IMG/VR virus record: IMGVR_UViG_3300032291_002681 | Location: 1 to 64,000 of that record | Source of the DNA: a virus | Length of the DNA: 64,000 nucleotides | Reading direction: 5' to 3' (one strand) | Shown here: one piece after another, positions 1 through 47,169 of the stretch | Layout: the number at the start of each line of letters is the position of its first letter | Numbering within the stretch: the first letter of the stretch is position 1 | Made by a program: the position numbers and the translations under genes | The notes under the pieces: generated by a model | Databases searched by the model: none | Told to the model about the DNA's origin: nothing | The model's input: the letters and a program-made list of their open reading frames with translations, nothing else

Positions 1-2769
1 AATGTTAAATACCCTAACTTAGATTATAGTGAAAGTAAATGTTATAGAGATTTAGGATATATCATTGATGGAGTAGCAACTGATTTACTTTATGGTGGTA
101 ATGAAAGAAGTAGAAAGAATGCAGATTACTATTATGAGTTCCCATCTCAAGCTAATGGTTCTGGTTCACAAGTTGTAGAAACGGTAGAAGCAATTAAGTA
201 CGCAGCTAGAATAACAACCGCATCTATTAGTAGTACACTATTACCAACACCACAAATTATACCTAATACCTTAGCAAATATTAAAGTAACAAACGCTAAT
301 CAATATATTTCAGCATCATCGGCAACTTCTACTGAAGCAACGATACTATCAGCATCAATTGCTATTGTAACAAACATAATTTCTAACGGAACTGGTTCAG
401 CAATAGTATCGGCATCATTAAGTTTACCAACTTCATCTTATACAACGCCGGTAAGCAATGATAACAGATGGATTGCATACGGAATACTAAAAAATAACAT
501 TTCATTCATACAGGATGAAACTATTGCATATTTATCATCATCTTGGTCAACTGCATCTTATGATGAAAGTAAGTGTAGACGTGATGTGGGATTAATTATA
601 AGTGGAGCAGCTGAAGATTTGGTATTTAACTCAAATTCAGCATCAGTAGTAAATGGTAGATTCTATTATCTATATCCATCTCAAGCGCAAGGAGCACAAT
701 TGAATCAAACTATTGATGGAATAAACTACGCAAGTAAGTTAGTACAAAAAGTAATTCAAAACGTAACTTATGTAACGGCATCAGCAGTTGTATCGGCATC
801 ATACGCATTAATAAGAAACAATAGACAATTTATTCAAAACGAAACTATTGCTTATCTATCTTCTTCTTGGAGTACGGCATCTTATGATGAAGTAACTTGT
901 AAGAGAGATGTTGGTCATATCATAGATGCAGTTTCTACGGATTTATTATATGGTGGAAATGAAAGAAGTACAAACGCTGGAGTATTCTATTATCTATATC
1001 CATCACAAGCGCAAGGTTCACAATTACAACCAACATTAACAGGTGTTAAATACGCAGGACAAACTTCTAAGAATGTTGCATCATCATTAACATTTGTGAC
1101 AGCATCTCAATTAGTATCAGCATCAGTTAATTTGTTGAGAAAAAATAGAGAGTTTATACAAAATGAAACACTAGCGTACTTAACTGCTAGTTGGAGTACA
1201 TTTGAGTATGATAAAGATAAGTGTAAGAGAGATACTGGTTATATCTTAGATGGTGTTACTACCGATTTATTATATGGTGGTAATGAGAGAACTGTATTGA
1301 ATGGTAAATTCTATTACGAATATCCATCTTTAGCAATCGTTGAAGGTGATGGTGATGGTGTTGGTCAATTAGGACAAACAATTGATGGTATAAACTACGC
1401 AGGTAGAATAGCACAAAAGATTGCACAAAATATACTATTCGTAACCGCATCAGTAGAGGCATCAGCATCGTTTGATTTATTAAGAAAAAATAAAGCATTT
1501 GTGGCAGAGGAAACTATTGCTTATGTAAGTTCTTCTTGGAGTGGTGTATATTATAACGAAGCAACTTGTAAGAGAGATGTAGGATACCTAATAGATGCAG
1601 CAGCAACGGATGTATTATATGGTGGACAAGAAAGAAGTGTGATAGCAGGACAGTATTATTACTTATATCCTTCTAACGCAATCAATAAAGGTGTACCATC
1701 TACTCAAAATCAATTAGACCCAACTCTTACTGGTATCAGATATGCTGGAAAGACAGCTAAAAAAGTAATAACTAATCCAACTTATTTAGTACCGTCTGCA
1801 TCTCTATTAACAACAGCAAAATTGTTGACAGATAATAAAGAATTGATACAAAAAGAAACTATAACATTCTTATCTTCATCTTGGAGTAATTTGAAATACA
1901 ATGAAGTAAGTTGTAGTAGAGATTTAGGATTTATCATAGATGCAATCAGAACGGATTTGGTTTATGGTGGTAACGAAAGAAGTATTGAAGCAGGTTCATA
2001 TTATTATAAATTCCCATCAGTAGCAATATTAGATAGTTATGGTGATAATAATGGACAAAAGAAACAAACGATAGATGGTATAAACTTCGCAAGAGGAATA
2101 TCTGAAAAAATTGTAGCAAATACTTTATTAACTTACTTAGCACCATCAACTAAGAGAAGACAAGCAGCTGAAAGATTGAAAGCTGGTAAAGATGAATTGA
2201 AACAAAGAGCAATTGGATACACAAATGGAGCTTTCCCATATTTAGTATATAATGAGGCAAGTTGTTCACGTGATACTGGATTTATTGTAGATGCGGCTGT
2301 AACTGATTTATTATATGGTGGAAACGAAAGAGGAATCAGAGCAGCATCGTCATACTATGATGGTCAATATGGAAGTGCAATAGCTGTGACTAGAGACCAA
2401 TTATTGGAAACTTTGGAAACAAATAGATATTTAAGAACTAGAGCAGAGTTTATTGCAGCAGGAGCACCATTAGAATCATTTGGTTCATTAATTGTGGCAA
2501 CTGGTATTGACTACTCTTATAATGGTAGTGGTGTAACATTTAAAGCACTTCCTCCAAATCAGGGTGGTAGTGGTGTTCCTAATCCTGAATTTGAAATTAC
2601 GGAATTAGGTGGTGGTAGAATCTTCTTTACCTCTGGTAACCAAGATGGTGACTTTAGAATTGGTACGGGACTAAGTATTAATCAGGCAACTGGTACTCTT
2701 GTGGGTAGAACATTTAGTAAATCTCTATTCTCATTAGTAACTCCGTTCTCATTGGCACTACAAATATAA
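1..2769 (+). CDS. Large virion structural repeat protein, 5'-truncated by the window edge; seven CxRDxG...D(L/V)xYGGN units
   Basis: Frame 1 is open from base 1 (NVKYPNLDYSESKCYRDLGYIIDGVATDLLYGGNERS...), so the listed GTG start at 586 is internal. Cys codons of the repeat are at 40, 574, 898, 1222, 1567, 1912 and 2263. The C-terminus (FFTSGNQDGDFRIGTGLSINQATGTLVGRTFSKSLFSLVTPF) resembles ends of T4-like phage fibre/structural proteins. Confidence 0.75.
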   Translation, partial: NVKYPNLDYSESKCYRDLGYIIDGVATDLLYGGNERSRKNADYYYEFPSQANGSGSQVVETVEAIKYAARITTASISSTLLPTPQIIPNTLANIKVTNANQYISASSATSTEATILSASIAIVTNIISNGTGSAIVSASLSLPTSSYTTPVSNDNRWIAYGILKNNISFIQDETIAYLSSSWSTASYDESKCRRDVGLIISGAAEDLVFNSNSASVVNGRFYYLYPSQAQGAQLNQTIDGINYASKLVQKVIQNVTYVTASAVVSASYALIRNNRQFIQNETIAYLSSSWSTASYDEVTCKRDVGHIIDAVSTDLLYGGNERSTNAGVFYYLYPSQAQGSQLQPTLTGVKYAGQTSKNVASSLTFVTASQLVSASVNLLRKNREFIQNETLAYLTASWSTFEYDKDKCKRDTGYILDGVTTDLLYGGNERTVLNGKFYYEYPSLAIVEGDGDGVGQLGQTIDGINYAGRIAQKIAQNILFVTASVEASASFDLLRKNKAFVAEETIAYVSSSWSGVYYNEATCKRDVGYLIDAAATDVLYGGQERSVIAGQYYYLYPSNAINKGVPSTQNQLDPTLTGIRYAGKTAKKVITNPTYLVPSASLLTTAKLLTDNKELIQKETITFLSSSWSNLKYNEVSCSRDLGFIIDAIRTDLVYGGNERSIEAGSYYYKFPSVAILDSYGDNNGQKKQTIDGINFARGISEKIVANTLLTYLAPSTKRRQAAERLKAGKDELKQRAIGYTNGAFPYLVYNEASCSRDTGFIVDAAVTDLLYGGNERGIRAASSYYDGQYGSAIAVTRDQLLETLETNRYLRTRAEFIAAGAPLESFGSLIVATGIDYSYNGSGVTFKALPPNQGGSGVPNPEFEITELGGGRIFFTSGNQDGDFRIGTGLSINQATGTLVGRTFSKSLFSLVTPFSLALQI

Positions 2770-2794: not shown

Positions 2795-3739
2795 ATGGCA
2801 GAAGTTTTTGTACCCTTAAATCGGTTTCAGTCAGTTGTAACAGGACTGACTGGTGAACCCGATGAAATCTACACAACACCAGCGGGTGTATCATCGATTG
2901 TGTTATCTTGTCAAATTACAAATAATAGTTTGATAACACAACCTGTGACAATATTTGTAACATCGAATAAAGAAATACCTGTGCCACAGTTTGGAGATAT
3001 TTTTAGTGGTAGTAATTTCATTAGTGCTTCCGCCGGTCCTTTTGCTGTCAATGGAATTGAAAATTTGGGTAGATTTAGTGGTAGTTTTGCGAGTGCATCT
3101 TTATTACTTAATTCAAATAGACAATTTTTAAGAAAAGAAATAGCAGCATACACAAATAATCAAAATAGTTTATCGGAAACTCCGTTTGTTTTTATATCAG
3201 ATTATTTTGAACAAAACACATTAGATGATGTGGATGCAATTAAATATGATATTGTAAATAACACAACTATTAGAACAAATAAAGCAGCAAAAGCATACTT
3301 TGATAAAAATGGTAGAAGTCTTATAGATACAACGGAATATTCAGCATCATTATTTGCATTAGATTATTTAAAAATATTATCTAATCAAATTATAAAAAAT
3401 CAATCAACAACTGGTTCTTCGGATTCGCCATTATTATTTCAAAGTGGAGTAACTCAATCGGTATTAACTAATTTTAATAACGGAACTGTAGCTGGAATTT
3501 CCGCATCAATATATGTTGTAAATTCTTTAGTGGATGTAATTAAGGAAACTATTGAAGCTCCTGTGTTTACTGAACAAGAAGCTGTAAGATTGGTTACAAA
3601 TGTAACAATACCACCAGCGGATTCTCTTTCACCAGTAGTTTCTGGTAAATTAGTGTTAGAAGAAACATACGGATTTATCGTTTCGGGCTCAACTGAATTA
3701 ACCGTAGTTCTTTCTTTGCTTGAAAGTGCTAATGAATAA
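2795..3739 (+). CDS. Structural adaptor protein (small beta-rich domain) with a ~200 aa insertion
   Basis: The N-terminal (EIYTTPAGVSSIVLSCQITN) and C-terminal (IPPADSL...GKLVLEETY...LSLLE) segments match the 110 aa paralog at 16854. The insert looks like a Cys-less copy of the upstream repeat. Confidence 0.6.
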   Translation: MAEVFVPLNRFQSVVTGLTGEPDEIYTTPAGVSSIVLSCQITNNSLITQPVTIFVTSNKEIPVPQFGDIFSGSNFISASAGPFAVNGIENLGRFSGSFASASLLLNSNRQFLRKEIAAYTNNQNSLSETPFVFISDYFEQNTLDDVDAIKYDIVNNTTIRTNKAAKAYFDKNGRSLIDTTEYSASLFALDYLKILSNQIIKNQSTTGSSDSPLLFQSGVTQSVLTNFNNGTVAGISASIYVVNSLVDVIKETIEAPVFTEQEAVRLVTNVTIPPADSLSPVVSGKLVLEETYGFIVSGSTELTVVLSLLESANE

Positions 3740-3807: not shown

Positions 3808-6800
3808 ATGGCAATTAGTAATCTATTAACAGGAAGGGTAAGAGTAGTTTCACCTAAAAATGTAACACAGGACAGGTATCAATTTATTGATTTATCACAA
3901 GTTGAACCAAATTTAGGTGTTCCAAATTTTTCGGCATCACTTTCAGGTTCTCCAGCTATTGTAGTTTCGGATGACCAGGGTAATAGAGGATTTGTAAGAA
4001 GTTTAGATTTAGATAGAGCAACTGGAGCATTTACTGGTTCATTTACTGGTTCATTTACTGGTTCTTATTATGGAGACGGTAGAGATTTATTTAATCTACC
4101 TGCCGCAAGATTTATATCAAGTGGTTCGGCAACTGCATCTTTTGTAGAAGGGAATTTATTAATTAATACGAACACTAGAGTTCAAGGTGACCTTTATGTC
4201 GATGATACAATTTATGCGGAAAGTATAATAGTATCTTATATATCATCATCGGTAATTTATTCTTCTGGTTCAAATATATTTGGAGATAATTATACTGATA
4301 GACAACAATTTACAGGATCTGTATTAGTTAGTTCATCTATTATTGTAAATGATATTACCGCATCACAATCTATCACTGGTTCATTTACCGGTTCTTTTTT
4401 TGGTGATGGTAGAGATATATTTAATTTACCACAAGCTACAAGATTAGTAACCGGTTCGGTAACCGCATCAGTAACACCTGAAGATGGATTTAAAGTAGTT
4501 TCAATTGTAAGTGGTTCTCAATTTACTGGTTCTCTTTTTGTAAGTGGGAATATTACTATACCATCTGGTAGTGGTTTTTTTAGTGGTAGTGGTGAAGGAT
4601 TATTTAACATACCACTTTCAGCACTTAATATAGATTCATTAGTAGCTAGTAGAATTGCAAGTGGTAGTGTTACTGCATCAGTTTCACCAACTGAAGGATT
4701 TAAAGTATTATCAGTCGCAAGTGGGTCTACTTTTACTGGTTCTCTTTTTGTAAGTGGAAATGTTGTAATTCCATCTGGTAGTGGATTCTTTAGTGGTAGT
4801 GGTGAAGGATTATTTAATATTCCATTATCGGCACTTAATATCGATTCATTAGAATCAACTTTAATATCAAGTGGTAGTATAACTGCGTCTGTATCTCCTG
4901 TATTTGGATTTAAAGTGCAATCACAAGAAAGTGGTTCTCAATTTAGTGGTTCCGTTAATATTAGTGGTAGTTTATTCGTATCACCATTTAGTGGCTCTTT
5001 ACAATTAGCATCTGGTTCAAATTATTATGGTGAGGGCCAATTCTTAAGAAACATACCTCGTTCAGCATTAACCGAAGACGCATTAATATCTACCGAAATA
5101 AAATCAGGTTCAATAACCGCATCAGTTTCACCTGTATTTGGATTTAAAGTAGAAACACCATTTACTGGTTCTCAATTTGGTTCTCAATTTACGGGAAGTA
5201 TTGATGTAAGTGGTAGTGTTAAAGCATTTGCATTTATAGGAGATGGTTCTCAATTAACAAATGTACAAGCAGCAGCTGCACCAAGAATAGAATCTGGTTC
5301 TGTAACTGCTTCGGTATCACCTAATTTTGGATTCCGTGTAGAATCGCAAATAAGTGGTTCTGAATTTACTGGTTCAATTGATGTGAGTGGAAGTATATTC
5401 ATACCATCCGGTAGTGGTGTATTTAGTGGTAGTGGTGCGGGTTTATTTGATATACCTCGTTCGGCACTTACTCCTGACGCATTATTATCAAACTTAATAG
5501 CAAGTGGTAGTGTTACCGCGTCTGTAACTCCTCAATTTGGATTCCGTGTGGAATCCAGAGTAAGTGGTTCAGAGTTTACAGGTTCAATTGATATTAGTGG
5601 AAGTGTATTTATACCAAGTGGTAGTGGTGTATTTAGTGGTAGTGGTGCGGGTTTATTTGATATACCTCGTTCAGCACTTACACCAGATGCACTTTTATCA
5701 AATTTAATAGCGAGTGGTTCAGTAACGGCATCTGTAACGCCTGATTTTGGATTTAGAATACAATCAATTGATAGTGGTTCTCAATTTACAGGTTCACTTT
5801 TTGTAAGTGGAGCTAGAGGTATTGAATTGGCATCGGGTTCATCTTATTCAGGTAGTGGTGCTAGATTGTTTAATATACCAGTAAATGCAATTGAAGATTT
5901 AGACCTCTCCAAAATTGGTAGTGGTTCGGTAACTGCATCAATAACTCCAAATAATGGATTTAGAGTAAATACATTTTCTACCTTTACCGGTAGTATGATT
6001 ATATCGGCATCTGCTACATATTTTGCAACCGAATCAATCAATCCAATATATAATGTAACTAATAATGGCAGTACATCGTATTCTTTTACCGGTGGAATTA
6101 TTGGTGATAATCCTACACTAACTTTAGTAAGAGGGGTAACTTATACATTTAATTTAAATGCAAGTGGGCATCCATTTTGGATAAAAACAATTCAATCCAC
6201 TGGTATTGTAAACGCATATAATACCGGTGTAACGAATAACGGTGATGATAATGGGGTAATAACATTTACACCACAAGTTGGTTCACCTAATACTCTATAT
6301 TATAATTGCCAACTTCATTTATCAATGGGTGGTATAATTAACATTATAGACGGGGTTTTACAAAAAACACCTGGAGTTGTTATTTCCGGAAGTTTAGATG
6401 TAAGTGAAGTTGTTAGAGCTAGAGAATTTACGGGTTCATTTTCAGCATCATTTATACAAGGTGATGGTGCTGGATTATTTAATATTCCTCGTTCTGCATT
6501 TACCGGAGATTCTTTTAGAATTGCTAGTGGTAGTATAACCGCATCAGTTTCACCTGTATTTGGATTTAAAGTAGAATCGGCTGAAGTTGGTTCTGAAATT
6601 TCTGGAAGTGTTAGAGTAAGTGGTTCGGTAATTGCATCAGCTGTAACCGCTGTATCAATGAGTGCACTTAATTTTAGTGGTTCATTTCAAGGAGATGGTA
6701 GTAGATTAACTAATATTGTTATTCCACCATTGGAGACTACACAAATAGCTAGTGGTTCGGTAACGGCATCAGCTGCACCTGATAAGGGATTTATAGTAAA

Positions 6801-9800
6801 ATCATCGGATTTTGGTTCTCAATTTACTGGTTCAGTTTTCATAAGTGGTAGTAGAGGCATTGAAATTGTATCTGGTTCATCTTACTCTGGTAGTGGTGCT
6901 AGATTATTTGATATACCGAGAACGGCGTTGGCACCTGATGCGTTAGATACCAATAGAATTCTTTCCGGTTCGGTAACGGCATCGGTAACTCCCCAATTTG
7001 GATTTCGAGTAGAATCTACCGAAAGAGGTTCTCAATTTAGTGGTTCGGTATTTTTAAGTGGTTCGGTATTTTTAAGAACAGGTTCGTTTAGTGGTAGTGG
7101 TAGAAATCTATTTGATATACCAGTTGCAGCTTTATCCGATTTAGATACATCAAAAATATTTAGTGGTTCGGTAACCGCATCGGTATCACCTAATTTTGGA
7201 TTTGTAGTAACATCTGTTGCGAGTGGTTCTATATTTAGTGGAAGTTTATTAGTAAGTGGAAGTAGTAGATTTAGAATGGGTGTATCTGCATCCGTATTTA
7301 GTGGTAGTGGAGCAGGATTGACAGATATTCCATTCTCAGCACTATCACAGGAATTATTTAGAATTGCAAGTGGGAGTGTGACTGCTTCAGCATTGCCTGA
7401 CAGGGGATTTGTTGTAGAATCCGTAGCAAGCGGTTCACAGATAACTGGTAGTGTTAAAATAACTGGAAGTTTAACAATAAATGCAACATCTGGAGCATTA
7501 ATACTTGGTTCATCATCTGCTTATTTTGGTGAAGGTACTTATTTAAGAAATATTCCTAGAAATGCTCTTAGTGAAGACGCATTAATATCAACTGAAATTA
7601 AAAGTGGTAGTGTAACGGCATCCGTTTCACCTAATTTTGGATTTGTTGTAAAATCGGCAGAAAGTGGTTCGCAATTTACTGGTAGTGTAAATATTAGTGG
7701 TAGTTTGCTTGTAAGAAGTGGTTCATTTTTTATTGGAGATGGTAGATTCCTTAACAATATTACATTAGCAAATTTAGCAATAGATTCTACAAAAATATTT
7801 AGTGGAAGTGCAACCGCATCAATATCACCATCGGATGGATTTAAAGTAAATACACATTCTAGATTTGATGGAAGTTTTATTGTATCTTCATCTGCAAGAA
7901 GTACACCTGATTATTTAATAGATAGAACTATTGCTGTAACAAATGATGGTAGTAATTCTTATATAATAGAAGTCGGTCTTATTAGTGGTTCAAACCCAAC
8001 TATAACATTAGTTAGGGGATTACAATACACTATTGATGTAAATGCACCTGGACACCCATTTTGGATTAAATATATAGAATCAACCGGTACATCTAATTCA
8101 TATAGTAGTAGTATTACAAATAATGGAACTGATAGTGGTACTATTGTATTCACTCCGCCATCCGGTTCGCCAGATACACTTTACTATAATTGTCAATTAC
8201 ATTCTTCAATGAAGGGTACAATTAATTTAATAAATGAATTAATTATTCCTGCAGAAATACGATTAATTGGAAATACTAAAATAGAAGGTAATCTTACTGC
8301 TTCGATGTATAGTGGTAGTGGTAGAGGTTTATTTGATATTCCTCGTTCTGCGATAACCGAAGATTCAGTTAGAATAGCAAGTGCTAGTGTGACCGCTTCG
8401 GTATCACCTGACTCTGGATTCTTAGTTCAATCGGTTGTTAGTGGTTCTACATTTAGTGGAAGTGTTGTTGTATCTGGAAGTATGTTCTTAAACTTTACTT
8501 CTGGTGCATTATTTATAGATTCATCATCTGGACTTTATTCTGATGGACAATTCTTAAGAAATATACCTCGTTCGGCTTTAACAGAAGATGCATTAATTAG
8601 TACTGAAATTAAATCTGGTTCCGTAACCGCATCCGTTTCTCCTGTATTCGGATTCAGAGTTGAAACTGGATTTACATCATCAATAAATGAAAATGGAGTT
8701 TATACAACTCAAATTGGTTCTAGATTTACTGGTAGTATTGATGTTAGTGGTAGTTTATTTATAAATGAAGTTAGTGGAGCAATATATCTTCAATCATCTT
8801 CAAATTATTATGGAGAAGGAAGATATTTAAGAAATATCCCCCGTTCAGCACTAACTGAAGATGCACTTATTAGTACCGAAATTAAATCGGGTTCAGTAAC
8901 AGCATCGGTAACACCTGATGAGGGTTTTAGAGTAATAACACCATTTACCGGTTCACAAATTGGTTCACAATTTACCGGTTCGGTTAATGTGAGTGGCTCA
9001 CTTATTGGGGATAATTTAACTGCTAGAGGATTTTTCTTTGGTGATGGTAGATTTATTACCAATGTACAAGCGGCTGCAGCTCCATTGATAGCAAGTGGTT
9101 CGGCAACTGCTTCGGTAGCAAGTGGAGAAACATTTGTAGTAAGAACTGAAAAAACAGGTTCTCAAATAGGTTCTGAATTTACTGGTTCAATATCAGTTAG
9201 TGGCTCAATATTAGGACAAGATATAACTTCAACTAGATTCTTCTTTGGAGATGGTAGATTTATTACAAATGTAGTTGCATCCGCAGCTCCATTTATAGCT
9301 AGTGGTTCGGCAACTGCATCGGTAGCAAACGGGTTTGATTTTAGAGTAATAACTGCGGCAACTGGTTCGGAAGTAGGTTCTGAATTTACTGGTAGTGTAG
9401 AGGTTAGTGGTTCATTAAAAGCAGATGATTTAACGGCAAGGGGATTCATTTTTGGTGATGGTAGATTTATCACTAATGTACAAGCATCCGCAGCTCCTTT
9501 AATAGCTAGTGGTTCTGCAACCGCATCGGTAGCAAGTGGAGATACTTTTAGAGTAATAACTGCCCCATCTTCTGGTTCGTTTAAATCACAATTTACATCA
9601 TCAGTAGCAATTAGTGGTTCTATTACTGCATCTTTATTTGTTGGTGATGGTGGTGGATTATTTAATATCCCACCTGATGCGATTGAAAATTTAGAATTAG
9701 CAAAGATTAACTCTGGTTCTGGTATTGCAATTATTGACCCAAATAAATTAGATGTAAATGTACCAATTACAGCATCTCGATTTGATGGAGATGGTAGTGG

Positions 9801-12800
9801 ATTATTTAATATTCCACCTGAAGCATTAGATGATTTGCAGATTGATAGAATTCAGTCTGGTTCATTTGAAGCAGTAATTTCTCCAAATAGAGGATTAGAA
9901 ATTGGAACTAGAACATTTGTGTCTGGTAACCTAAGTGTTAGTGGTGGATTGTTTGTAACTGGTGGAAACATTATAGTATCATCTGGTTCTTCATTCGTTG
10001 GAGATGGTAGTGGTATTACAAATATTAACATTGCTAATTTATCATTTGAAACATCACTATTACAATCAGGCTCAGCAATAGCTAGAATATCTCCAAATTT
10101 TGGATTTGTAGTAAATACATCATCTTTAATTGAGGGTAATTTAGTAGTAACAAACCAAATTACAGCAAGTAATTTAATATTTTCACCATTATTTACTGGT
10201 TCATTCTTAGGAACTTATAATTTCCAAGGAGTAGGACCAACTGCATCTGCGGAATATGATATTTTACGATATGATGAAAATAGAGGATATTTTATACCTC
10301 AACCTGAAACTTCATTAACTGAAACTGTATCATTTAATAATGTTAGTAATTTAACAATTGTACATAATTTGGGAATTAGATACCCAATGGTGCAAGTGTA
10401 CGCAACTGGTTCTGAAGACCAAATTTTACCTGGCACAATAAAATCAATTAATGATGACACTATTCAAATTGTATTTAGTGGATTGACTAGTGGACACGTT
10501 GTAATTGGTAGTGGTGGTTCATTGATTAATGGTACAATACCTGGTGATAGAGTATTTGGAAATGTATTATCTGCATCATACGCTATAACTGCAGAATTTG
10601 CAAAGACTGTAGCGGGATTTGATTCAGCATCATTGGCAAATTTATCTGCATCATTGAGTGATACTGCACAATATGTAAGAAATTCACAAACCGCATCAAT
10701 GACTGTTGGTAGGGCTGTAAGTTCTTCATACGCACTAACCGCATCTTATGTTGAAAACTTAACCGGATTAAATCTAACTGAATATGTAAGAAACGATAGA
10801 ACATCTTCAATGACTGTTTTATCTGCATCATTTGCAAGAACTGCATCTTACGCATTATTTGCACAAAATGCATCGAATGTAGATACCTCAAACTTTGTTC
10901 AGAATTCACAAACTGCATCAATGTTGGTTGGTACTGCTTCATTAGCATTTACCGCATCATACGCTCTTTACGCTTTAAATGCGGAAGGAGTAAATACGGC
11001 ATCATTCTTACAAGTAAACAAAGATTCTACGATAAACGCTAATTTAACTATTAGTGGTAGTTTGGGAGTAAGTGGTAGTTTAATATTACAAAACTTACCA
11101 TCTGGTTCATCTGAAGATGTTGTTATTTGGAATAGTATAACAAAACGATTAGAAAGAAGAAATATAGTAGCTGCTGTTGGTTCATCTGGTACAACTGGTA
11201 CCGCAGGAACTGCGGGTACATCGGGTTCTTCTGGTACTTCGGGAACTTCGGGTACTTCTGGAACATCCGGTTCATCCGGAACAAGTGGAAGTAGTGGTAC
11301 ATCTGGAGAAGATGGGACATCTGGTACATCTGGAAGTAGTGGAACATCCGGAAGTAGTGGCACATCAGGAACTAGTGGTACAAGTGGTACTTCTGGAACA
11401 TCCGGTTCATCCGGAACAAGTGGTTCAAGTGGTACTTCTGGTTCCAGTGGTAGTAGTGGAACATCTGGAACGAGTGGAACATCAGGAACTTCTGGTTCAA
11501 GTGGTACTTCTGGAACATCTGGAAGTGCTGGGACAAGTGGTACTTCTGGAACATCTGGAACTACTGGTTCAGAAGGAACTTCAGGAACATCTGGAAGTAG
11601 TGGAACATCCGGAAGTAGTGGAACATCCGGAAGTAGTGGTACATCCGGAACTTCTGGCACATCGGGTTCTTCTGGAAGCGGAGGAACATCTGGTACATCT
11701 GGTAGCGGTGGTTCTTCTGGAACATCGGGAAGTGGAGGTACATCTGGTACATCAGGTAGTAGTGGAACTTCTGGAACTTCTGGAACATCTGGAAGTAGTG
11801 GAAGTGGTGGAACATCGGGAACATCTGGAAGTGGTGGAACAAGCGGAACATCTGGAAGTGGTGGAACAAGCGGAACATCCGGAACTTCTGGAAGTAGTGG
11901 AAGTGGAGGAACTTCTGGAAGCGGAGGTTCATCGGGTTCATCTGGAAGTGGAGGAACATCTGGTACATCTGCAACTGCTGGTACGGGTGGAACATCTGGA
12001 AGTAGCGGAACATCTGGAAGTGGTGGAACATCAGGAACTTCTGGTACATCTGGTACATCTGGAACATCTGGTACATCGGGAAGTGATGGTGTAAGTGGAA
12101 CTTCTGGAACAAGCGGAACATCTGGCACATCAGGAACTTCTGGAACAAGCGGAACATCTGGAAGTACCGGTAGTAGTGGAACTTCTGGCACATCAGGAAC
12201 TTCTGGTACATCTGGTACATCTGGAACATCTGGAGAAGATGGGACATCTGGTACATCGGGAAGTAGTGGAACATCTGGTACGAGCGGAACAACTGGAAGT
12301 AGTGGTACATCTGGTACAAGTGGAAGTAGTGGTACTTCTGGTAGTAGTGGTTCATCTGGAACAAGCGGTTCATCTGGTACTACCGGTTCATCCGGAACTT
12401 CTGGAAGTAGCGGAACAAGTGGAACTTCTGGAACAGATGGTACATCAGGAACAAGCGGCTCATCAGGAACATCAGGAACTTCAGGAAGCACTGGTTCATC
12501 TGGTACTAGTGGAAGTAGTGGAACTTCTGGAACATCAGGAAGTGATGGAACTTCTGGAACAAGCGGTACTTCTGGTACAAGTGGAACATCAGGAAGTACC
12601 GGTTCAGATGGTACTTCTGGAAGTAGTGGAACATCGGGTACATCGGGTAGTGATGGAACTTCTGGTACATCTGGCTCAGCTGGAACATCAGGAAGTACCG
12701 GTTCATCTGGTACAACTGGCTCCGAAGGTACGAGTGGAACATCTGCAATAGATGGAACAAGTGGTACTTCTGGAACCGATGGTACGAGTGGTACATCTGG

Positions 12801-15150
12801 AACAAGTGGAACATCTGGAAGTACCGGTTCATCTGGTACAACCGGTTCTGAGGGTACGAGTGGTACTTCTGGAACGAATGGCACAAGTGGAACTTCTGGA
12901 ACGAATGGTACAAGTGGAACTTCTGGAACTTCTGGAAGTAGTGGAAGTACTGGTTCATCTGGAACATCTGGCATAAATGGCACAAGTGGAACATCTGGTA
13001 GCGATGGAACATCGGGAACATCTGGTTCATCCGGTTCTTCTGGAACTAGAGGAACATCTGGTTCAGATGGAACATCGGGTTCTTCTGGAACAAGCGGACT
13101 AGATGGTACATATTTTGGCTCATCTGGTACAAGTGGTAGCAGTGGTACATCCGGAACAAGTGGTAGTACGGGAACTGCGGGTACATCGGGTTCTTCTGGA
13201 ACAAGCGGATTAGATGGTACATATTTTGGAAGTAGTGGAACATCGGGAACAAGTGGTAGCACTGGAACTGCAGGTTCTTCTGGAACATCTGGAACATCGG
13301 GTACATCTGGAACTACGGGAACATCCGGAACATCTGGACTAGATGGTACATATTTTGGTAGTAGTGGAACATCCGGCACATCAGGAACATCTGGAACATC
13401 TGGTACATCTGGTACATCTGGTACAACTGGTTCTGATGGAACATCTGGAACATCTGGATTAGATGGTACATTCTTTGGTAGTAGTGGGACATCGGGAACA
13501 TCTGGTACATCTGGTTCGAATGGCACATCTGGTTCTACTGGAACCGATGGTACATCTGGAAGTAGTGGAACATCTGGATTAGATGGTACATTCTTTGGTT
13601 CATCTGGTACAAGTGGTGAAGCTGGTACATCTGGAACTTCTGGAGCAGGTACATCTGGAACAAGCGGAACATCTGGAAGTAGTGGAACAAGTGGAATTGA
13701 TGGAACATTCTTTGGTTCTTCTGGTACGAGTGGTGAAGCTGGAACATCTGGTACATCAGGTGCAGGAACTTCTGGAACAAGCGGAACATCGGGAAGTACC
13801 GGTAGTAGTGGAACATCTGGTTTAGATGGAACATTTTTTGGTTCATCTGGTACAAGCGGGTCATCCGGAACATCTGGAACTTCTGGAACATCTGGACAAA
13901 CCGGTACTAATGGAACTTCTGGTACTTCTGGTACAAGTGGATTAGATGGTACATATTTTGGTAGTAGTGGAACTTCAGGAACTTCTGGTACATCTGGTTC
14001 TACCGGAACTGATGGAACATCTGGAAGTAGTGGAACTAGTGGAGTTTCTGGAACATCTGGATTTGACGGTACATATTTTGGTAGTAGCGGAACTTCAGGA
14101 ACTTCAGGAACTTCTGGTACATCTGGTACATCAGGATTAGGTACAAATGGAACTTCTGGTTCAACAGGAACATCTGGATTAAATGGTACATTCTTTGGTA
14201 GTAGTGGAACATCTGGAACGAGTGGAACATCAGGAACTTCTGGTACATCTGGATTAGGTACAAACGGAACATCTGGAACAACCGGAACAAGTGGATTAAA
14301 TGGTACATTCTTTGGAAGTAGTGGAACATCTGGTACATCTGGAGCACAAGGTACTACTGGTGAGGCGGGTACTTCGGGTACTTCGGGTACAACTCCTCCA
14401 AACTTTACATCTGGTACCGCAGGAACGAGTGGACAGACTGGTACTTCGGGTACTTCAGGCACAACTCCTCCGAACTTTACATCTGGAACCGCAGGAACGA
14501 GTGGTCAAACCGGTACTTCTGGAACATCGGGTACAACTCCTCCGAACTTTACTTCTGGTACCGCAGGAACAAGTGGACAAACTGGTTCATCCGGAACATC
14601 GGGTACAACTCCTCCGAACTTTACCTCTGGAACATCAGGTACAAATGGATTTGCTTTAGCTGGAACTACTAACGATGGATTACTTACTTATTCAAACGCA
14701 CCAGTTGGCGCAGTAGTTGAAAGTAATTTAACATTTGATGGTTCTATATTAACGATAACCGGTACAACTACACAAACGGGTAACATAGGTGTTACAGGAG
14801 CAATATCGGCAACGCAAAATATAACAGCAACAACATTTAGAGAAACTTATTCTGATTTAACAACCGGTGGTAGTGTAACTTTAGATTTATCGACAGCAAA
14901 TAACTTTAGAAGACAATTTAATGGCACATCTACAATAACAATATCAAACCCACCTGCATCAAATGCATTTGGATTTACATTTACAATGGTTAATGCTGGT
15001 GGTTACGCTATAACTTGGCCTGCTAGTGTAGATTGGGTTAATGGAAGTGCTCCAATATTAACATCAATTGGTACAGATGTATTATCATTCTTTACATTCA
15101 ATGGTGGTACAACTTATTACGGATTTGTAGTTGGAAAAAATATGAGTTAA
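3808..15150 (+). CDS. Giant fibre protein (3780 aa): SGS-rich ~70 aa repeats, two cupredoxin-like domains, a ~1150 aa Gly-X-Y tract and a C-terminal fibre domain
   Basis: Repeats IASGSVTASVSPxFGF...SGSQFTGS...GxGLFxIP; GHPF...YYNCQLHxSM occurs twice; (GTS/GSS)n tract. Lies in the structural module upstream of an adhesin and a tail-fibre chaperone. Confidence 0.75.
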   Translation: MAISNLLTGRVRVVSPKNVTQDRYQFIDLSQVEPNLGVPNFSASLSGSPAIVVSDDQGNRGFVRSLDLDRATGAFTGSFTGSFTGSYYGDGRDLFNLPAARFISSGSATASFVEGNLLINTNTRVQGDLYVDDTIYAESIIVSYISSSVIYSSGSNIFGDNYTDRQQFTGSVLVSSSIIVNDITASQSITGSFTGSFFGDGRDIFNLPQATRLVTGSVTASVTPEDGFKVVSIVSGSQFTGSLFVSGNITIPSGSGFFSGSGEGLFNIPLSALNIDSLVASRIASGSVTASVSPTEGFKVLSVASGSTFTGSLFVSGNVVIPSGSGFFSGSGEGLFNIPLSALNIDSLESTLISSGSITASVSPVFGFKVQSQESGSQFSGSVNISGSLFVSPFSGSLQLASGSNYYGEGQFLRNIPRSALTEDALISTEIKSGSITASVSPVFGFKVETPFTGSQFGSQFTGSIDVSGSVKAFAFIGDGSQLTNVQAAAAPRIESGSVTASVSPNFGFRVESQISGSEFTGSIDVSGSIFIPSGSGVFSGSGAGLFDIPRSALTPDALLSNLIASGSVTASVTPQFGFRVESRVSGSEFTGSIDISGSVFIPSGSGVFSGSGAGLFDIPRSALTPDALLSNLIASGSVTASVTPDFGFRIQSIDSGSQFTGSLFVSGARGIELASGSSYSGSGARLFNIPVNAIEDLDLSKIGSGSVTASITPNNGFRVNTFSTFTGSMIISASATYFATESINPIYNVTNNGSTSYSFTGGIIGDNPTLTLVRGVTYTFNLNASGHPFWIKTIQSTGIVNAYNTGVTNNGDDNGVITFTPQVGSPNTLYYNCQLHLSMGGIINIIDGVLQKTPGVVISGSLDVSEVVRAREFTGSFSASFIQGDGAGLFNIPRSAFTGDSFRIASGSITASVSPVFGFKVESAEVGSEISGSVRVSGSVIASAVTAVSMSALNFSGSFQGDGSRLTNIVIPPLETTQIASGSVTASAAPDKGFIVKSSDFGSQFTGSVFISGSRGIEIVSGSSYSGSGARLFDIPRTALAPDALDTNRILSGSVTASVTPQFGFRVESTERGSQFSGSVFLSGSVFLRTGSFSGSGRNLFDIPVAALSDLDTSKIFSGSVTASVSPNFGFVVTSVASGSIFSGSLLVSGSSRFRMGVSASVFSGSGAGLTDIPFSALSQELFRIASGSVTASALPDRGFVVESVASGSQITGSVKITGSLTINATSGALILGSSSAYFGEGTYLRNIPRNALSEDALISTEIKSGSVTASVSPNFGFVVKSAESGSQFTGSVNISGSLLVRSGSFFIGDGRFLNNITLANLAIDSTKIFSGSATASISPSDGFKVNTHSRFDGSFIVSSSARSTPDYLIDRTIAVTNDGSNSYIIEVGLISGSNPTITLVRGLQYTIDVNAPGHPFWIKYIESTGTSNSYSSSITNNGTDSGTIVFTPPSGSPDTLYYNCQLHSSMKGTINLINELIIPAEIRLIGNTKIEGNLTASMYSGSGRGLFDIPRSAITEDSVRIASASVTASVSPDSGFLVQSVVSGSTFSGSVVVSGSMFLNFTSGALFIDSSSGLYSDGQFLRNIPRSALTEDALISTEIKSGSVTASVSPVFGFRVETGFTSSINENGVYTTQIGSRFTGSIDVSGSLFINEVSGAIYLQSSSNYYGEGRYLRNIPRSALTEDALISTEIKSGSVTASVTPDEGFRVITPFTGSQIGSQFTGSVNVSGSLIGDNLTARGFFFGDGRFITNVQAAAAPLIASGSATASVASGETFVVRTEKTGSQIGSEFTGSISVSGSILGQDITSTRFFFGDGRFITNVVASAAPFIASGSATASVANGFDFRVITAATGSEVGSEFTGSVEVSGSLKADDLTARGFIFGDGRFITNVQASAAPLIASGSATASVASGDTFRVITAPSSGSFKSQFTSSVAISGSITASLFVGDGGGLFNIPPDAIENLELAKINSGSGIAIIDPNKLDVNVPITASRFDGDGSGLFNIPPEALDDLQIDRIQSGSFEAVISPNRGLEIGTRTFVSGNLSVSGGLFVTGGNIIVSSGSSFVGDGSGITNINIANLSFETSLLQSGSAIARISPNFGFVVNTSSLIEGNLVVTNQITASNLIFSPLFTGSFLGTYNFQGVGPTASAEYDILRYDENRGYFIPQPETSLTETVSFNNVSNLTIVHNLGIRYPMVQVYATGSEDQILPGTIKSINDDTIQIVFSGLTSGHVVIGSGGSLINGTIPGDRVFGNVLSASYAITAEFAKTVAGFDSASLANLSASLSDTAQYVRNSQTASMTVGRAVSSSYALTASYVENLTGLNLTEYVRNDRTSSMTVLSASFARTASYALFAQNASNVDTSNFVQNSQTASMLVGTASLAFTASYALYALNAEGVNTASFLQVNKDSTINANLTISGSLGVSGSLILQNLPSGSSEDVVIWNSITKRLERRNIVAAVGSSGTTGTAGTAGTSGSSGTSGTSGTSGTSGSSGTSGSSGTSGEDGTSGTSGSSGTSGSSGTSGTSGTSGTSGTSGSSGTSGSSGTSGSSGSSGTSGTSGTSGTSGSSGTSGTSGSAGTSGTSGTSGTTGSEGTSGTSGSSGTSGSSGTSGSSGTSGTSGTSGSSGSGGTSGTSGSGGSSGTSGSGGTSGTSGSSGTSGTSGTSGSSGSGGTSGTSGSGGTSGTSGSGGTSGTSGTSGSSGSGGTSGSGGSSGSSGSGGTSGTSATAGTGGTSGSSGTSGSGGTSGTSGTSGTSGTSGTSGSDGVSGTSGTSGTSGTSGTSGTSGTSGSTGSSGTSGTSGTSGTSGTSGTSGEDGTSGTSGSSGTSGTSGTTGSSGTSGTSGSSGTSGSSGSSGTSGSSGTTGSSGTSGSSGTSGTSGTDGTSGTSGSSGTSGTSGSTGSSGTSGSSGTSGTSGSDGTSGTSGTSGTSGTSGSTGSDGTSGSSGTSGTSGSDGTSGTSGSAGTSGSTGSSGTTGSEGTSGTSAIDGTSGTSGTDGTSGTSGTSGTSGSTGSSGTTGSEGTSGTSGTNGTSGTSGTNGTSGTSGTSGSSGSTGSSGTSGINGTSGTSGSDGTSGTSGSSGSSGTRGTSGSDGTSGSSGTSGLDGTYFGSSGTSGSSGTSGTSGSTGTAGTSGSSGTSGLDGTYFGSSGTSGTSGSTGTAGSSGTSGTSGTSGTTGTSGTSGLDGTYFGSSGTSGTSGTSGTSGTSGTSGTTGSDGTSGTSGLDGTFFGSSGTSGTSGTSGSNGTSGSTGTDGTSGSSGTSGLDGTFFGSSGTSGEAGTSGTSGAGTSGTSGTSGSSGTSGIDGTFFGSSGTSGEAGTSGTSGAGTSGTSGTSGSTGSSGTSGLDGTFFGSSGTSGSSGTSGTSGTSGQTGTNGTSGTSGTSGLDGTYFGSSGTSGTSGTSGSTGTDGTSGSSGTSGVSGTSGFDGTYFGSSGTSGTSGTSGTSGTSGLGTNGTSGSTGTSGLNGTFFGSSGTSGTSGTSGTSGTSGLGTNGTSGTTGTSGLNGTFFGSSGTSGTSGAQGTTGEAGTSGTSGTTPPNFTSGTAGTSGQTGTSGTSGTTPPNFTSGTAGTSGQTGTSGTSGTTPPNFTSGTAGTSGQTGSSGTSGTTPPNFTSGTSGTNGFALAGTTNDGLLTYSNAPVGAVVESNLTFDGSILTITGTTTQTGNIGVTGAISATQNITATTFRETYSDLTTGGSVTLDLSTANNFRRQFNGTSTITISNPPASNAFGFTFTMVNAGGYAITWPASVDWVNGSAPILTSIGTDVLSFFTFNGGTTYYGFVVGKNMS
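4440..10130 (+). repeat. Array of ~70 aa (about 210 nt) SGS-rich coding repeats
   Basis: Near-identical DNA units 210 nt apart (e.g. 4561 vs 4771; 5401 vs 5611). Boundaries are approximate. Confidence 0.8.
11179..14649 (+). repeat. Collagen-like Gly-Thr-Ser/Gly-Ser-Ser tract 1 (9-nt period)
   Basis: GGWACWTCW-type triplets over ~1150 codons; 11 G(L/I/F)(D/N)GT(Y/F)FG interruptions and 4 GTTPPNFTS units near the 3' end. Confidence 0.95.
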
Positions 15151-46767: not shown

Positions 46768-47169
46768 ATGTTTATACCAAATCATTTACATTTACTTGTA
46801 AAAGGATACATAAAAACCCCACCACAAACCGAAAACGTATTAAACGAATGGTTTAGACAATTAGTTACTAAGGTAGGAATGAAAGTGGTAGCAGGACCTA
46901 CATCAGTTTATGTGAATGAACCTGGCAACGAAGGAATAACTGGAACTGTGACCCTAGCAACATCGCATGCTAGTATTCACGTTTGGGATAACGAAAATCC
47001 AGCTATGTTTCAATTTGATTTATATAGTTGTTCGGATTTTACACCAACGCAAGTATTAGACCATATTGATGAATGGTTTGAATTAAATGAAGCCTATTGG
47101 CAGTTTATAGATAGAAACGGAAGTACCTTTGAATTAGTAAATTCTGGGCATTTCACAAAAAACAAATAA
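46768..47169 (+). CDS. speD: Pyruvoyl-dependent S-adenosylmethionine decarboxylase proenzyme (SpeD-like)
   Basis: HLHLLV...GITGTVTLATSHASIHVW...FDLYSCSDF. Confidence 0.8.
   Translation: MFIPNHLHLLVKGYIKTPPQTENVLNEWFRQLVTKVGMKVVAGPTSVYVNEPGNEGITGTVTLATSHASIHVWDNENPAMFQFDLYSCSDFTPTQVLDHIDEWFELNEAYWQFIDRNGSTFELVNSGHFTKNK

What the first reader, a model, noticed from the sequence alone, without database searches (positions are those of the whole stretch)
1..2769. Virion protein built from tandem phycobiliprotein-like units that keep the bilin-attachment Cys-x-Arg-Asp motif
Seen: seven units spaced 108-178 aa apart, each with an invariant C-x-R-D-x-G and usually a downstream YGG, e.g. AAERLKAGKDELKQRAIGYTNGAFPYLVYNEASCSRDTGFIVDAAVTDLLYGG. 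Established: phycocyanin/allophycocyanin subunits are globin folds whose conserved chromophore site reads roughly ...FPY...KCARDIGYYLRxxxYxxxxGG, with Cys84 bound to the bilin and Arg86/Asp87 contacting it. The spacing of CxRDxG and GG, and the preceding FPY in the last unit, match that pattern. Inference: this is a multi-globin structural protein that may bind tetrapyrroles, in a phage whose promoters indicate a non-photosynthetic Bacteroidota host. Possible roles are UV/ROS shielding, pigment sensing, or attachment to cyanobacterial particles.
Basis: partly seen in the sequence, partly recalled or inferred. Interest (0 to 1): 0.85.

Follow-up and report, generated by a model that had tools for sequence, protein, structure and literature searches.

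The report
Phycobiliprotein-like globin array in phage fibre
The end of a giant phage tail-fibre-type protein is a chain of shortened relatives of the pigment-carrying phycobiliproteins, each keeping the pigment-attachment residues; since complete relatives of the phage encode pigment-making enzymes, the virus particle may carry bilin pigment, though this is untested.

Summary
ORF 1-2769 is cut by the contig start. It is the last 922 aa of a ~4,200-aa protein and holds seven C-x-R-D-x-G motifs, which contain its only cysteines.

The repeat is a widespread ~110-aa unit: 1,250 representative proteins, with up to 36 units each. A confident AlphaFold2 model (pLDDT 90) is a five-helix globin core. 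Its nine best matches among 48,161 solved chains are all phycobiliprotein-family or photocobilin chains (Z 9.7-12.0). Profile-profile alignment to phycobiliproteins gives 84.5% probability (P = 7e-6) and puts C/R/D on Cys84/Arg86/Asp87. The X/Y helices, helix H and Arg93 are missing, and Pfam PF00502 does not match. This is a new truncated branch, not a classical phycobiliprotein.

All five large relatives tested carry adjacent heme oxygenase and PcyA-like bilin reductase genes. None has psbA or a known lyase. Promoter-like motifs suggest a Bacteroidota host.

Bilin binding is inferred, not shown. I found no published description. This scan has already noted the same family on other genomes.

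A small lead: S-PM2, P-HM1 and P-HM2 carry such units, and the paper read here reports that adsorption of these phages depends on light. P-SSM2 lacks the units and adsorbs in the dark.

The parts
1..2769 (+). C-terminal 922 codons (plus stop) of a giant ORF cut by the contig start. Orthologues are about 4,183-4,187 aa and hold 22 units.
   Evidence: P0003 (4,183 aa) aligns at 72% identity over all 922 aa to its residues 3269-4183. The G001 orthologue is a 4,187-aa open frame with 22 units.
1..237 (+). Unit 1: a partial globin core whose N-terminal helices lie beyond the contig start. Cys at aa 14 (CxRDxG at nt 40-57).
238..441 (+). Single-helix segment of ~68 aa with the motifs NIKVT and IVTNIISNGTGS. 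It is one copy of a ~51-aa helix repeat that alternates with blocks of cores in the full-length protein.
   Evidence: The AF2 helix at model residues 31-50 lies in 10-residue blocks with mean pLDDT 94 and 88, and there is a beta-bridge from 15-16 to 179-180. Docking onto the first core has weak support only: score 0.43 against a best control of 0.01.
442..765 (+). Unit 2: the first core of the last block. It is a variant with SGAAEDL...NSNSAS in place of YGG. CxRDxG at nt 574-591.
766..1089 (+). Unit 3: globin core. CxRDxG at nt 898-915.
1090..1434 (+). Unit 4: globin core. CxRDxG at nt 1222-1239.
1435..1779 (+). Unit 5: globin core. CxRDxG at nt 1567-1584.
1780..2130 (+). Unit 6: globin core. 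CxRDxG at nt 1912-1929.
2131..2484 (+). Unit 7: the most divergent core (32% identical to unit 3), with FPY before the Cys. CxRDxG at nt 2263-2280.
2485..2769 (+). C-terminal ~94-aa domain without a repeat, shared with the C-termini of many cyanomyovirus tail-fibre proteins, followed by the stop codon.
   Evidence: phrog_3442 and phrog_17885 match their C-terminal ends. tblastn gives 40-52% identity to the tail-fibre C-termini of many Synechococcus and Prochlorococcus phages.
2795..3739 (+). Downstream 314-aa ORF that holds one degenerate unit without CxRD. It may be a single-domain paralogue.
   Evidence: The G001 orthologue gives a weak unit match (E = 1.3e-3). The equivalent 292-aa ORF next to the array in G029, G030 and G032 matches at about 1e-20. 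The translation has no CxRD.

Best explanation
Shown: the ORF is the C-terminal fifth of a ~4,200-aa tail-fibre / baseplate-associated virion protein of an uncultured freshwater myovirus. Most of the protein is made of ~110-aa five-helix globin cores. These are remote, truncated homologues of phycobiliproteins and bilin-binding globins. They correspond to helices B, E, F', F and G, about PBP residues 33-148. Every core keeps the chromophore triad Cys-x-Arg-Asp on the helix-E equivalent. The cores have lost the X/Y helices, helix H and the Asp13-Arg93 pair that builds alpha/beta phycobiliprotein monomers.

In the full-length protein, blocks of cores alternate with blocks of ~51-aa single helices in equal numbers (about 22 and 22). 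Each helix may complete one core.

Inferred: during infection a phage heme oxygenase opens host heme to biliverdin. A phage PcyA/PcyX-like ferredoxin-dependent reductase then makes a bilin with an ethylidene A-ring. Each core attaches one bilin to its Cys by a thioether bond without a lyase, as BBAGs do. The assembled fibre would then carry dozens of chromophores.

What the pigment would be for is not known. Candidates are light sensing that gates adsorption, photoprotection or radical quenching, or stiffening of the domains.
For: - Fold: the AF2 model of units 3+4 has pLDDT 90.4 and pTM 0.84. An all-against-48,161-chain structural search gives phycobiliprotein-family or photocobilin chains as ranks 1-9. 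Examples are 8imk_G (Z 12.0, rmsd 2.0 A over 100 residues), 8or7_A (11.7), 5aqd_M (11.1), ApcE 4xxi_A (11.0) and photocobilin 8j2y_B (10.8). Other globin-like folds follow at Z 9.3 or less. A second model reproduces this ranking. The Foldseek hit list is also dominated by phycobiliproteins.
- Sequence: hhalign of 142 units against 30 phycobiliproteins gives probability 84.5%, P = 7e-6 and 103 columns. Unit 4-110 aligns to PBP 33-148, with C45/R47/D48 on Cys84/Arg86/Asp87. The range agrees with the structural alignment. The control against an unrelated family gives probability 0.13%, P = 0.44. The seven-unit HMM ranks phycocyanin alpha chains first in the PDB (E = 0.15-1).
- Conservation: C 96%, R 97% and D 99% over 1,106 units. 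The motif Cys are the only Cys in the fragment.
- Pigment genes: adjacent heme oxygenase and FDBR genes occur in 5 of 5 large relatives. Four are 97-100% complete and one is 70% complete. These relatives lack psbA. Sampling from the FDBR side found two further array-bearing lineages. The FDBRs are PcyA-like.
- Literature: CXRD-type BBAGs attach bilins without a lyase (PMC10151467). The role of phage hemO plus FDBR is called enigmatic (PMC11480375).
- Virion context: tail-fibre PHROG matches, and neighbouring fibre, chaperone, sheath, tube and hub genes.
- Helix-core pairing: helix and core counts in P0003 and the high pLDDT of the single helix. Complex prediction gives weak support: score 0.43, best of 3 controls 0.01. 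That mark was reached by 58 of 80 solved complexes and 2 of 110 mismatches, but at 0.60 or under by only 7 of those 80 and by both mismatches. The runs agree in at least 82% of contacts, and the partner pLDDT is at least 54.
Against:
- Pfam PF00502 does not match.
- The deeper two-unit HMM finds nothing in PDB sequences.
- Foldseek E-values are 0.4-1.
- For all-helical models, Z below about 13 can reflect a common arrangement (note).
- The window's own 91-kb record has no HO or FDBR. It is 42% complete, and in the two relatives where I have both coordinates (G001, G002) these genes lie more than 100 kb from the fibre gene.
- The link is not strict. A 92%-complete FDBR+ genome (G037) and Pelagibacter phage Mosig have no array.
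- The array-bearing genomes are related to each other, so their co-occurrence is not independent.
- No lyase or ferredoxin gene was found in the complete relatives.
- I know of no report of coloured phage particles.
Confidence: 0.5

Rival explanations
1. Apo-globin building block. The units descend from bilin-binding globins but now serve only as rigid helical modules of a long fibre. Cys, Arg and Asp are kept for folding, for helix-core docking, or for inter-chain disulfides. The phage HO and FDBR serve another purpose, such as iron release or host metabolism.
For: The units have lost several phycobiliprotein features: the X/Y helices, helix H and Arg93. Other invariant residues (Asp59, Tyr75, Thr92, Asn19) are not among the invariant or nearly invariant columns of the phycobiliprotein alignment, which suggests a family-specific core. 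FDBR+ phages without arrays exist. No lyase was found. HO and FDBR are not adjacent to the fibre gene.
Against: It is hard to see why exactly the three chromophore-binding residues would be kept at 96-99% in over a thousand diverged units if no chromophore binds. The single Cys per unit has no partner Cys within the unit. All five large relatives keep HO plus FDBR although they have no psbA and probably infect hosts that make no phycobilins.
Confidence: 0.3
2. The units bind a different ligand at the conserved site, for example heme, biliverdin taken up non-covalently, a metal, or a host surface molecule. The fibre would then act as an adhesin or a redox-active surface rather than a phycobilin carrier.
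For: Globin-like folds bind many ligands. Heme globin sensors also appear in the structural hit list at Z 6-9. BBAG-2 proteins bind biliverdin rather than reduced bilins (PMC10151467).
Against: In the one study read here (PMC10151467), the CXRD motif goes with BBAG-1, BBAG-3 and phycobiliproteins, which took up FDBR-made bilins, whereas the biliverdin-specific BBAG-2 lacks it. No proximal-His-type conserved residue appears in the unit profile. The presence of an FDBR, not only an HO, points to a reduced bilin.
Confidence: 0.12
3. There is no homology. A generic helical repeat carries a chance C-x-R-D-x-G motif, and the resemblance to phycobiliproteins is convergent or an artefact of structure prediction.
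For: HMM and Foldseek E-values are not significant. Sequence identity in the alignments is about 12-15%. Helical models often reach middling Z scores (note).
Against: Three methods pick the same family and the same register: the HMM top hits, hhalign at P = 7e-6 against 0.44 for a control, and a structure search with ranks 1-9 all bilin-binding globins at rmsd 2.0-3.3 A. The sequence and structural alignments cover the same PBP range, 33 to about 146.
Confidence: 0.06

Closest known systems
Light-harvesting phycobiliproteins (ApcA/B, CpcA/B, CpeA/B; Pfam PF00502)
   Same: Both have the globin-like helices B, E, F', F and G (Z up to 12.0, rmsd 2.0 A). Cys-x-Arg-Asp sits at the helix-E chromophore position, followed by Gly-Gly about 18 residues later.
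   Different: The unit is ~110 aa instead of 160-185. It has no X/Y helices and no helix H in the core. Arg93 is replaced by Asp, so the Asp13-Arg93 pair is lost. The Pfam model does not match. Units lie in tandem arrays of up to 36 inside giant phage structural proteins. No phycobilisome context and no lyase genes were found.
BBAGs, bilin biosynthesis-associated globins of non-photosynthetic bacteria, and photoglobins/photocobilins (Rockwell et al. 2023, PMC10151467; PDB 8j2y)
   Same: Both are bilin-binding-globin relatives that occur outside photosynthesis in genomes that also encode HO and a PcyA-type FDBR. The CXRD motif is as in BBAG-1 and BBAG-3. Photocobilin is among the top structural matches (Z 10.8-11.2).
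   Different: BBAGs as described in PMC10151467 are cellular globins encoded in clusters with the FDBR. Here the domains are truncated, multiplied about 22-fold in a virion protein, and encoded far from HO/FDBR: more than 100 kb away in G001 and G002. I did not compare sequences with BBAGs directly because none was available to the tools.
ApcE (phycobilisome core-membrane linker) bilin-binding domain
   Same: A phycobiliprotein-type domain embedded in a very large multidomain protein. Structural matches are at Z 9.2-11.0 (4xxi_A, 7eyd, 7sc7, 9wg7).
   Different: ApcE has one such domain plus linker repeats and belongs to the phycobilisome. Here 22 domains form the bulk of a phage fibre protein.
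Giant tail-fibre / baseplate proteins of T4-like cyanophages (S-PM2 p091, P-HM1/P-HM2 gp7; phrog_4527, phrog_5342, phrog_701)
   Same: They share the same repeat unit and the same C-terminal domain. They are annotated as tail fibre, baseplate wedge or virion structural proteins.
   Different: Those phages infect cyanobacteria, and only 5-9 units each were detected in the three checked by profile. This phage has a sheath closest to Microcystis phage Mel-JY01 and Flavobacterium immuto phages, Bacteroidota-type promoter motifs, and 22 units in its orthologues. The held records and papers do not describe the repeat as globin-like or phycobiliprotein-like.

Membership tests
Phycobiliprotein (Pfam PF00502) | Match to the family HMM above the curated cut-off | tested here: not met
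   There was no PF00502 hit for the 922-aa protein even at E <= 1. There was none in six frames of the 91-kb record at E <= 10.
Phycobiliprotein (Pfam PF00502) | Globin-like fold that superposes on helices B, E, F', F and G | tested here: met
   Ranks 1-9 of 48,161 chains are phycobiliprotein-family or photocobilin chains, at Z 9.7-12.0 and rmsd 2.0-3.3 A over 97-111 residues. A second model repeats this. These are predicted models, not experimental structures.
Phycobiliprotein (Pfam PF00502) | Cys-x-Arg-Asp chromophore site on helix E (Cys84/Arg86/Asp87) | tested here: met
   hhalign aligns C45/R47/D48 to Cys84/Arg86/Asp87 at probability 84.5%, P = 7e-6. The HMM alignment to phycocyanin alpha gives the same equivalence. 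The residues are 96-99% conserved.
Phycobiliprotein (Pfam PF00502) | N-terminal X/Y helices and the Asp13-Arg93 pair that form the alpha/beta monomer; C-terminal helix H | tested here: not met
   Both the sequence and the structural alignments start at about PBP residue 33 and end at about 144-148. Arg93 aligns with a conserved Asp. A separate single helix may substitute for a missing helix, but support is weak.
Phycobiliprotein (Pfam PF00502) | Covalently bound bilin | not testable with these tools
   This needs expression with bilin synthesis genes, or analysis of virions.
Phycobiliprotein (Pfam PF00502) | Dedicated lyase (CpcS/CpeS, CpcT/CpeT type) in the same genome | tested here: not met
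   PF06206 and PF09367 are absent from the large relatives searched, four of them 97-100% complete. CpcE/F-type lyases were not searched.
BBAG / bilin-binding globins (Rockwell et al. 2023) | Globin related to phycobiliproteins that carries CXRD (BBAG-1/3 type) | tested here: met
   The motif definition comes from PMC10151467.
BBAG / bilin-binding globins (Rockwell et al. 2023) | Genomic association with heme oxygenase and a PcyA-lineage FDBR | tested here: inconclusive
   HO and a PcyA-like FDBR are present in 5 of 5 large relatives, but they are not clustered with the globin gene. They are absent from the window's own partial record. FDBR+ genomes without the array exist.
BBAG / bilin-binding globins (Rockwell et al. 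2023) | Lyase-independent bilin attachment | not testable with these tools
   This needs a biochemical assay.
Giant cyanomyovirus-type tail-fibre / virion structural proteins (phrog_4527, phrog_5342, phrog_701) | Significant HMM match and position in a tail module | tested here: met
   phrog_4527 matches at 2.6e-62, phrog_5342 at 1.7e-50 and phrog_701 at 1.6e-27. The neighbours are collagen-like fibres, a fibre-assembly protein, sheath, tube and hub. Presence in the particle was not verified experimentally here.

The most novel reading that the evidence does not exclude
The arrays are virion-borne bilin photoreceptors. Phage-made bilins (or, in cyanophages, host bilins) are attached to the fibre or baseplate globin units, and light absorbed by them changes fibre conformation and so gates adsorption.

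This would explain two open puzzles at once. The first is why phages, including phages of non-photosynthetic hosts, carry heme oxygenase and bilin reductase genes. The second is why adsorption of some cyanophages needs light independently of host photosynthesis.

In the four myoviruses for which I have both data types, units are present in S-PM2, P-HM1 and P-HM2, whose adsorption depends on light, and absent from P-SSM2, which adsorbs in the dark. The sample is far too small to count as a test.
Probability: 0.15. Interest if true: 0.95.

Novelty: new variant of a known kind. Interest (0 to 1): 0.8.

Why it matters
Phage heme oxygenase and bilin reductase genes have been known for about two decades. 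In cyanophages they are usually explained as support for host phycobilisomes. In phages of non-photosynthetic hosts their purpose is openly called enigmatic (PMC11480375).

A phage-encoded structural protein with dozens of bilin-attachment-type globin domains would be a natural acceptor for those pigments, and it makes the question directly testable. It would also be the first case I know of where the phycobiliprotein fold is used outside light harvesting or signalling in cells, as a building block of a virus particle. It offers a concrete candidate for the light-sensitive phage tail fibres invoked for light-dependent adsorption (PMC6628666).

The family is large: 1,250 representative proteins. 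It occurs in cultured phages (S-PM2, P-HM1, P-HM2), so experiments are feasible now.

Tried and rejected
- Pfam on the whole protein gave only sub-threshold noise and no PF00502.
- phmmer against PDB sequences gave nothing. The two-unit profile A2 against PDB sequences gave nothing at E <= 10.
- Foldseek against the PDB gave no hit at E <= 0.001, although phycobiliproteins dominate the weak list.
- The ESM Atlas gave no usable hit.
- PF00502, heme oxygenase and FDBR were not found in the window's own 91-kb record. This is uninformative because the record is 42% complete.
- FDBR and psbA were not found in 17 fragmentary array-bearing contigs of 24-64% completeness. This is also largely uninformative: in G001 and G002 the FDBR lies more than 100 kb from the fibre gene.
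- CpeT, CpeS and 2Fe-2S ferredoxin families were not found in the large relatives searched.
- Sub-ranges of protein ids are not accepted by the aligner, so all unit alignments were built from DNA references to IMG/VR loci.
- An all-against-all blastp clustering timed out and was replaced by 3-mer filtering.
- The structural search with the helix+core+core model could not show where the single helix packs, and model coordinates are not exposed. Pocket and Cys-accessibility analysis was therefore impossible.
- The primary paper on light-dependent adsorption (Jia et al. 2010) is not held. I relied on its citation in PMC6628666.
- A literature search for 'BBAG' plus 'phage' was swamped by journal identifiers.
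- Idea rejected: that the phage is a classical cyanomyovirus. There is no psbA in the large relatives, and the sheath is closest to Mel-JY01 and immuto phages.
Full report
**What is in the window.** The window is the first 64 kb of a 91,070-bp linear IMG/VR virus record that CheckV rates 42% complete. Frame 1 is open from base 1 to a stop at 2767-2769, so the ORF is cut by the contig start. Its 922 residues contain C-x-R-D-x-G seven times. The Cys lie at aa 14, 192, 300, 408, 523, 638 and 755, with spacings of 178, 108, 108, 115, 115 and 117 aa. These are the only cysteines in the protein, and the motif occurs nowhere else in the window. Six units have YGG downstream. The units are 32-59% identical to each other.

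**Size of the family and the full-length protein.**
- A profile of the seven units finds 1,250 representative proteins at E <= 1e-3 among 1.84 billion. Of these, 494 are at E <= 1e-30.
- Many of the listed proteins are 2,000-6,400 aa long, with up to 36 units.
- P0003 (4,183 aa) is 72% identical to all 922 residues at its C-terminus.
- A 274-kb relative (G001) has a 4,187-aa frame with 22 units.
- The window therefore holds roughly the last fifth of the protein.
- Over 1,106 units, the conserved positions are Cys45 96%, Arg47 97%, Asp48 99%, Asp59 100%, Tyr75 98%, Thr92 92%, Tyr40 86% and Asn19 84%.

**Fold.** I aligned 114 diverse two-unit segments taken by DNA reference from related IMG/VR loci. 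AlphaFold2 on this alignment gave mean pLDDT 90.4 and pTM 0.84, with five helices per unit.

A structural search that aligns the model to each of 48,161 representative PDB chains returned the following as ranks 1-9:
- an allophycocyanin-type subunit, 8imk_G (Z 12.0, rmsd 2.0 A over 100 residues);
- far-red allophycocyanin, 8or7_A (Z 11.7);
- phycoerythrin, 5aqd_M (Z 11.1);
- the ApcE bilin domain, 4xxi_A (Z 11.0);
- a photocobilin globin, 8j2y_B (Z 10.8);
- three ApcE chains and another phycoerythrin (Z 9.7-10.2).

Colicin pore domains (Z 9.3 or less), heme globin sensors (about 8) and RsbR (about 8) follow. A second model gave the same ranking. Foldseek E-values were only 0.4-1, but its list is also dominated by phycobiliproteins. 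The tool warns that Z below about 13 is common for helical models, so fold alone is suggestive rather than decisive.

**Sequence homology.**
- The seven-unit HMM ranks three phycocyanin alpha chains first among 177,635 PDB sequences. The E-values are not significant (0.15, 0.38 and 1.0). The alignment puts KC.RD.GY...GG on Cys84...Gly102/103.
- A deeper two-unit HMM found nothing.
- For a proper profile-profile test I fetched phycobiliprotein genes from cyanobacterial genomes, aligned 30 of them (A3), and compared them with 142 diverse units (A4).
- hhalign gave probability 84.5% and P = 7e-6 over 103 columns, with unit 4-110 on PBP 33-148. Cys45, Arg47 and Asp48 fall on Cys84, Arg86 and Asp87. 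This is the same range as the structural alignment (model 5-107 on chain 33-144).
- The same unit profile against an unrelated family gave probability 0.13% and P = 0.44.
- I conclude, at about 85-90% confidence, that the unit is a true but truncated relative of phycobiliproteins and bilin-binding globins.
- It lacks the X/Y helices and helix H. It has Asp where phycobiliproteins have the invariant Arg93, and it fails Pfam PF00502. It is therefore not a classical family member.

**Architecture.** The 178-aa spacing after unit 1 comes from a separate ~68-aa segment that contains one helix, with the motifs NIKVT and IVTNIISNGTGS.

The order along P0003 is as follows:
- a beta-rich N-terminal region of about 340 aa;
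- about 5 helix repeats of ~51 aa, then 3 cores;
- 5 helices, then 4 cores;
- 6 helices, then 6 cores;
- 5 helices, then 3 cores;
- 1 helix, then 6 cores.

That makes about 22 helices and 22 cores, and the running count of helices minus cores never goes negative. The helix count was made partly by eye.

The window holds the last core of the three-core block, the lone helix, the final six cores and a ~94-aa C-terminal domain.

An AF2 model of helix + unit 2 + unit 3 has pLDDT 86.3 and pTM 0.86. The single helix spans model residues 31-50, which lie in 10-residue blocks with mean pLDDT 94 and 88. A beta-bridge links the strand before the helix to the linker after unit 2.

A two-chain prediction of the helix segment against the first core gave weak support:
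- score 0.43, best of 3 controls 0.01;
- that mark was reached by 58 of 80 solved complexes and 2 of 110 mismatches;
- at 0.60 or under it was reached by only 7 of those 80 and by both mismatches;
- the runs agree in at least 82% of contacts, and the partner pLDDT is at least 54.

The idea that each helix completes one core is plausible but not established.

**Context and host.** Downstream lie:
- a 314-aa ORF with a degenerate unit lacking CxRD;
- two collagen-like fibre proteins of 3,780 and 2,706 aa;
- a fibre-assembly protein, a tail sheath, a tail tube and a baseplate hub;
- replication and nucleotide-metabolism genes.

The protein matches giant tail-fibre and virion-structural PHROGs.

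The sheath is closest to Microcystis phage Mel-JY01 (47% identity), to an uncultured 484-kb phage, and to Flavobacterium immuto phages (50% over 61% of the length). About a dozen intergenic sites read TTGG-N17-19-CGTATATTTGTA. This fits the Bacteroidota -33/-7 promoter type, whose consensus I recalled rather than looked up. No TTGAC-N16-18-TATAAT site is present. Large relatives have no psbA.

The IMG sample numbers of the close relatives resemble Lake Mendota series, judging from the bin names. This is an inference only.

**Pigment genes.** The window's own partial record has no heme oxygenase or FDBR. All five large relatives do: G001 (274 kb), G002 (253 kb), G003 (207 kb), G004 (188 kb) and G005 (134 kb, 70% complete). 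Of these, G001, G003 and G004 are 82-90% identical in nucleotides to the window over this gene, and G002 about 68%.
- In each of the five relatives the two genes are adjacent, and Pfam confirms them for G001.
- In G001 and G002 they lie more than 100 kb from the fibre gene, which explains their absence from array-bearing fragments.
- The FDBRs are PcyA-like but score far below the equivalog cut-off. The closest FDBR in a cultured phage is in Pelagibacter phage Mosig, at 34% identity.
- Starting instead from the FDBR, 19 further large contigs included 7 with arrays, which represent two more lineages.
- The link is not strict. G037 (92% complete) and Mosig have an FDBR but no array.
- The sheath relatives Mel-JY01, immuto and LR756508 have neither.
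- No CpeT, CpeS or ferredoxin genes were found.
- The array-bearing genomes are related to each other, so these counts are not independent events.

**Literature.** Rockwell et al. 2023 (PMC10151467) describe BBAGs. These are phycobiliprotein paralogues in non-photosynthetic bacteria, associated with HO and pre-PcyA. Some carry CXRD, and they attach bilins without lyases. [quoted passage not shown] Six full-text searches found no description of phycobiliprotein-like domains in phage structural proteins. This scan's own notebook shows that the same family was flagged on at least seven other genomes, with similar follow-up readings. Those are AI notes, not independent evidence. I reached the fold, homology and HO/FDBR results before reading them.

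**A lead on function.** Among cultured phages, many tblastn hits match only the C-terminal domain. A profile search finds true units in three phages and none in three others:
- S-PM2: 9 units, in the 3,340-aa p091 and a 3,792-aa ORF;
- P-HM1 and P-HM2: 5 units each, in the giant gp7 baseplate protein and a second giant ORF;
- P-SSM2, Mosig and Mel-JY01: none.

Liu et al. 2019 (PMC6628666) report three things. P-HM1 and P-HM2 do not adsorb in the dark. Light-dependent adsorption, shown in S-PM2, does not rely on host photosynthesis. P-SSM2 adsorbs in the dark. [quoted passage not shown] The match of four out of four is far too small to count as a test, but it points to an experiment.

**Verdict.** The most likely mechanism is that each core covalently binds a bilin made by the phage HO/FDBR pathway, so that the fibre is pigmented. 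I put this at about 50%. The main rival, at about 30%, is that the cores are chromophore-free structural modules. The domain belongs to a known superfamily, but its truncated, multiplied, virion-borne form appears undescribed.

Noticed in passing
window 38977-61895 and further sites to 79337 of the 91-kb record (e.g. 38977, 39859, 49297, 49388, 52527, 57420, 61860): About a dozen + strand intergenic copies of TTGG-N17-19-CGTATATTTGTA lie 35-480 nt upstream of ORF starts. This is a strongly conserved promoter-like motif of the Bacteroidota -33/-7 type. No TTGAC-N16-18-TATAAT sites are present.
   Followed up: partly
window 3808-15150 and 17199-25319: Two giant ORFs of 3,780 and 2,706 aa carry collagen-like and tail-fibre PHROG matches. 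They coincide with GC-rich stretches (0.46-0.47 against about 0.33) at 12-14 kb and 18-20 kb, and long spurious antisense ORFs overlap them.
   Followed up: partly
window 2795-3739: A 314-aa ORF directly downstream contains one degenerate globin-type unit without the Cys-x-Arg-Asp motif. The equivalent small ORF next to the array in another lineage (G029, G030, G032) matches the unit profile at about 1e-20.
   Followed up: partly
window 46768-47169; also L073:2962-3402 in the 274-kb relative: There is an S-adenosylmethionine decarboxylase (speD-like) gene. In the relative, a second copy lies next to the FDBR and heme oxygenase genes.
   Followed up: no
P0003 residues ~620-730 (full-length orthologue, outside the window): A ~110-aa beta-rich domain lies between the N-terminal helix repeats and the first globin cores. 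An earlier first-reader note on this genome (e1-6076528) speaks of 'pigment plus copper', possibly meaning a cupredoxin-like domain. I did not test this.
   Followed up: no
L075 (Pelagibacter phage Mosig, MT647606.1 39650-43977): Mosig encodes ferrochelatase, four 2OG-Fe(II) oxygenases, heme oxygenase and a PcyA-like FDBR in a row, next to neck genes, yet has no globin unit detectable with the profile.
   Followed up: partly
structural hit lists: The cyanophage A4 pre-ejectosome protein (9k3a_A) matches the unit model at Z 6.5-6.6 over about 100 residues. This may be only a generic helical resemblance.
   Followed up: no
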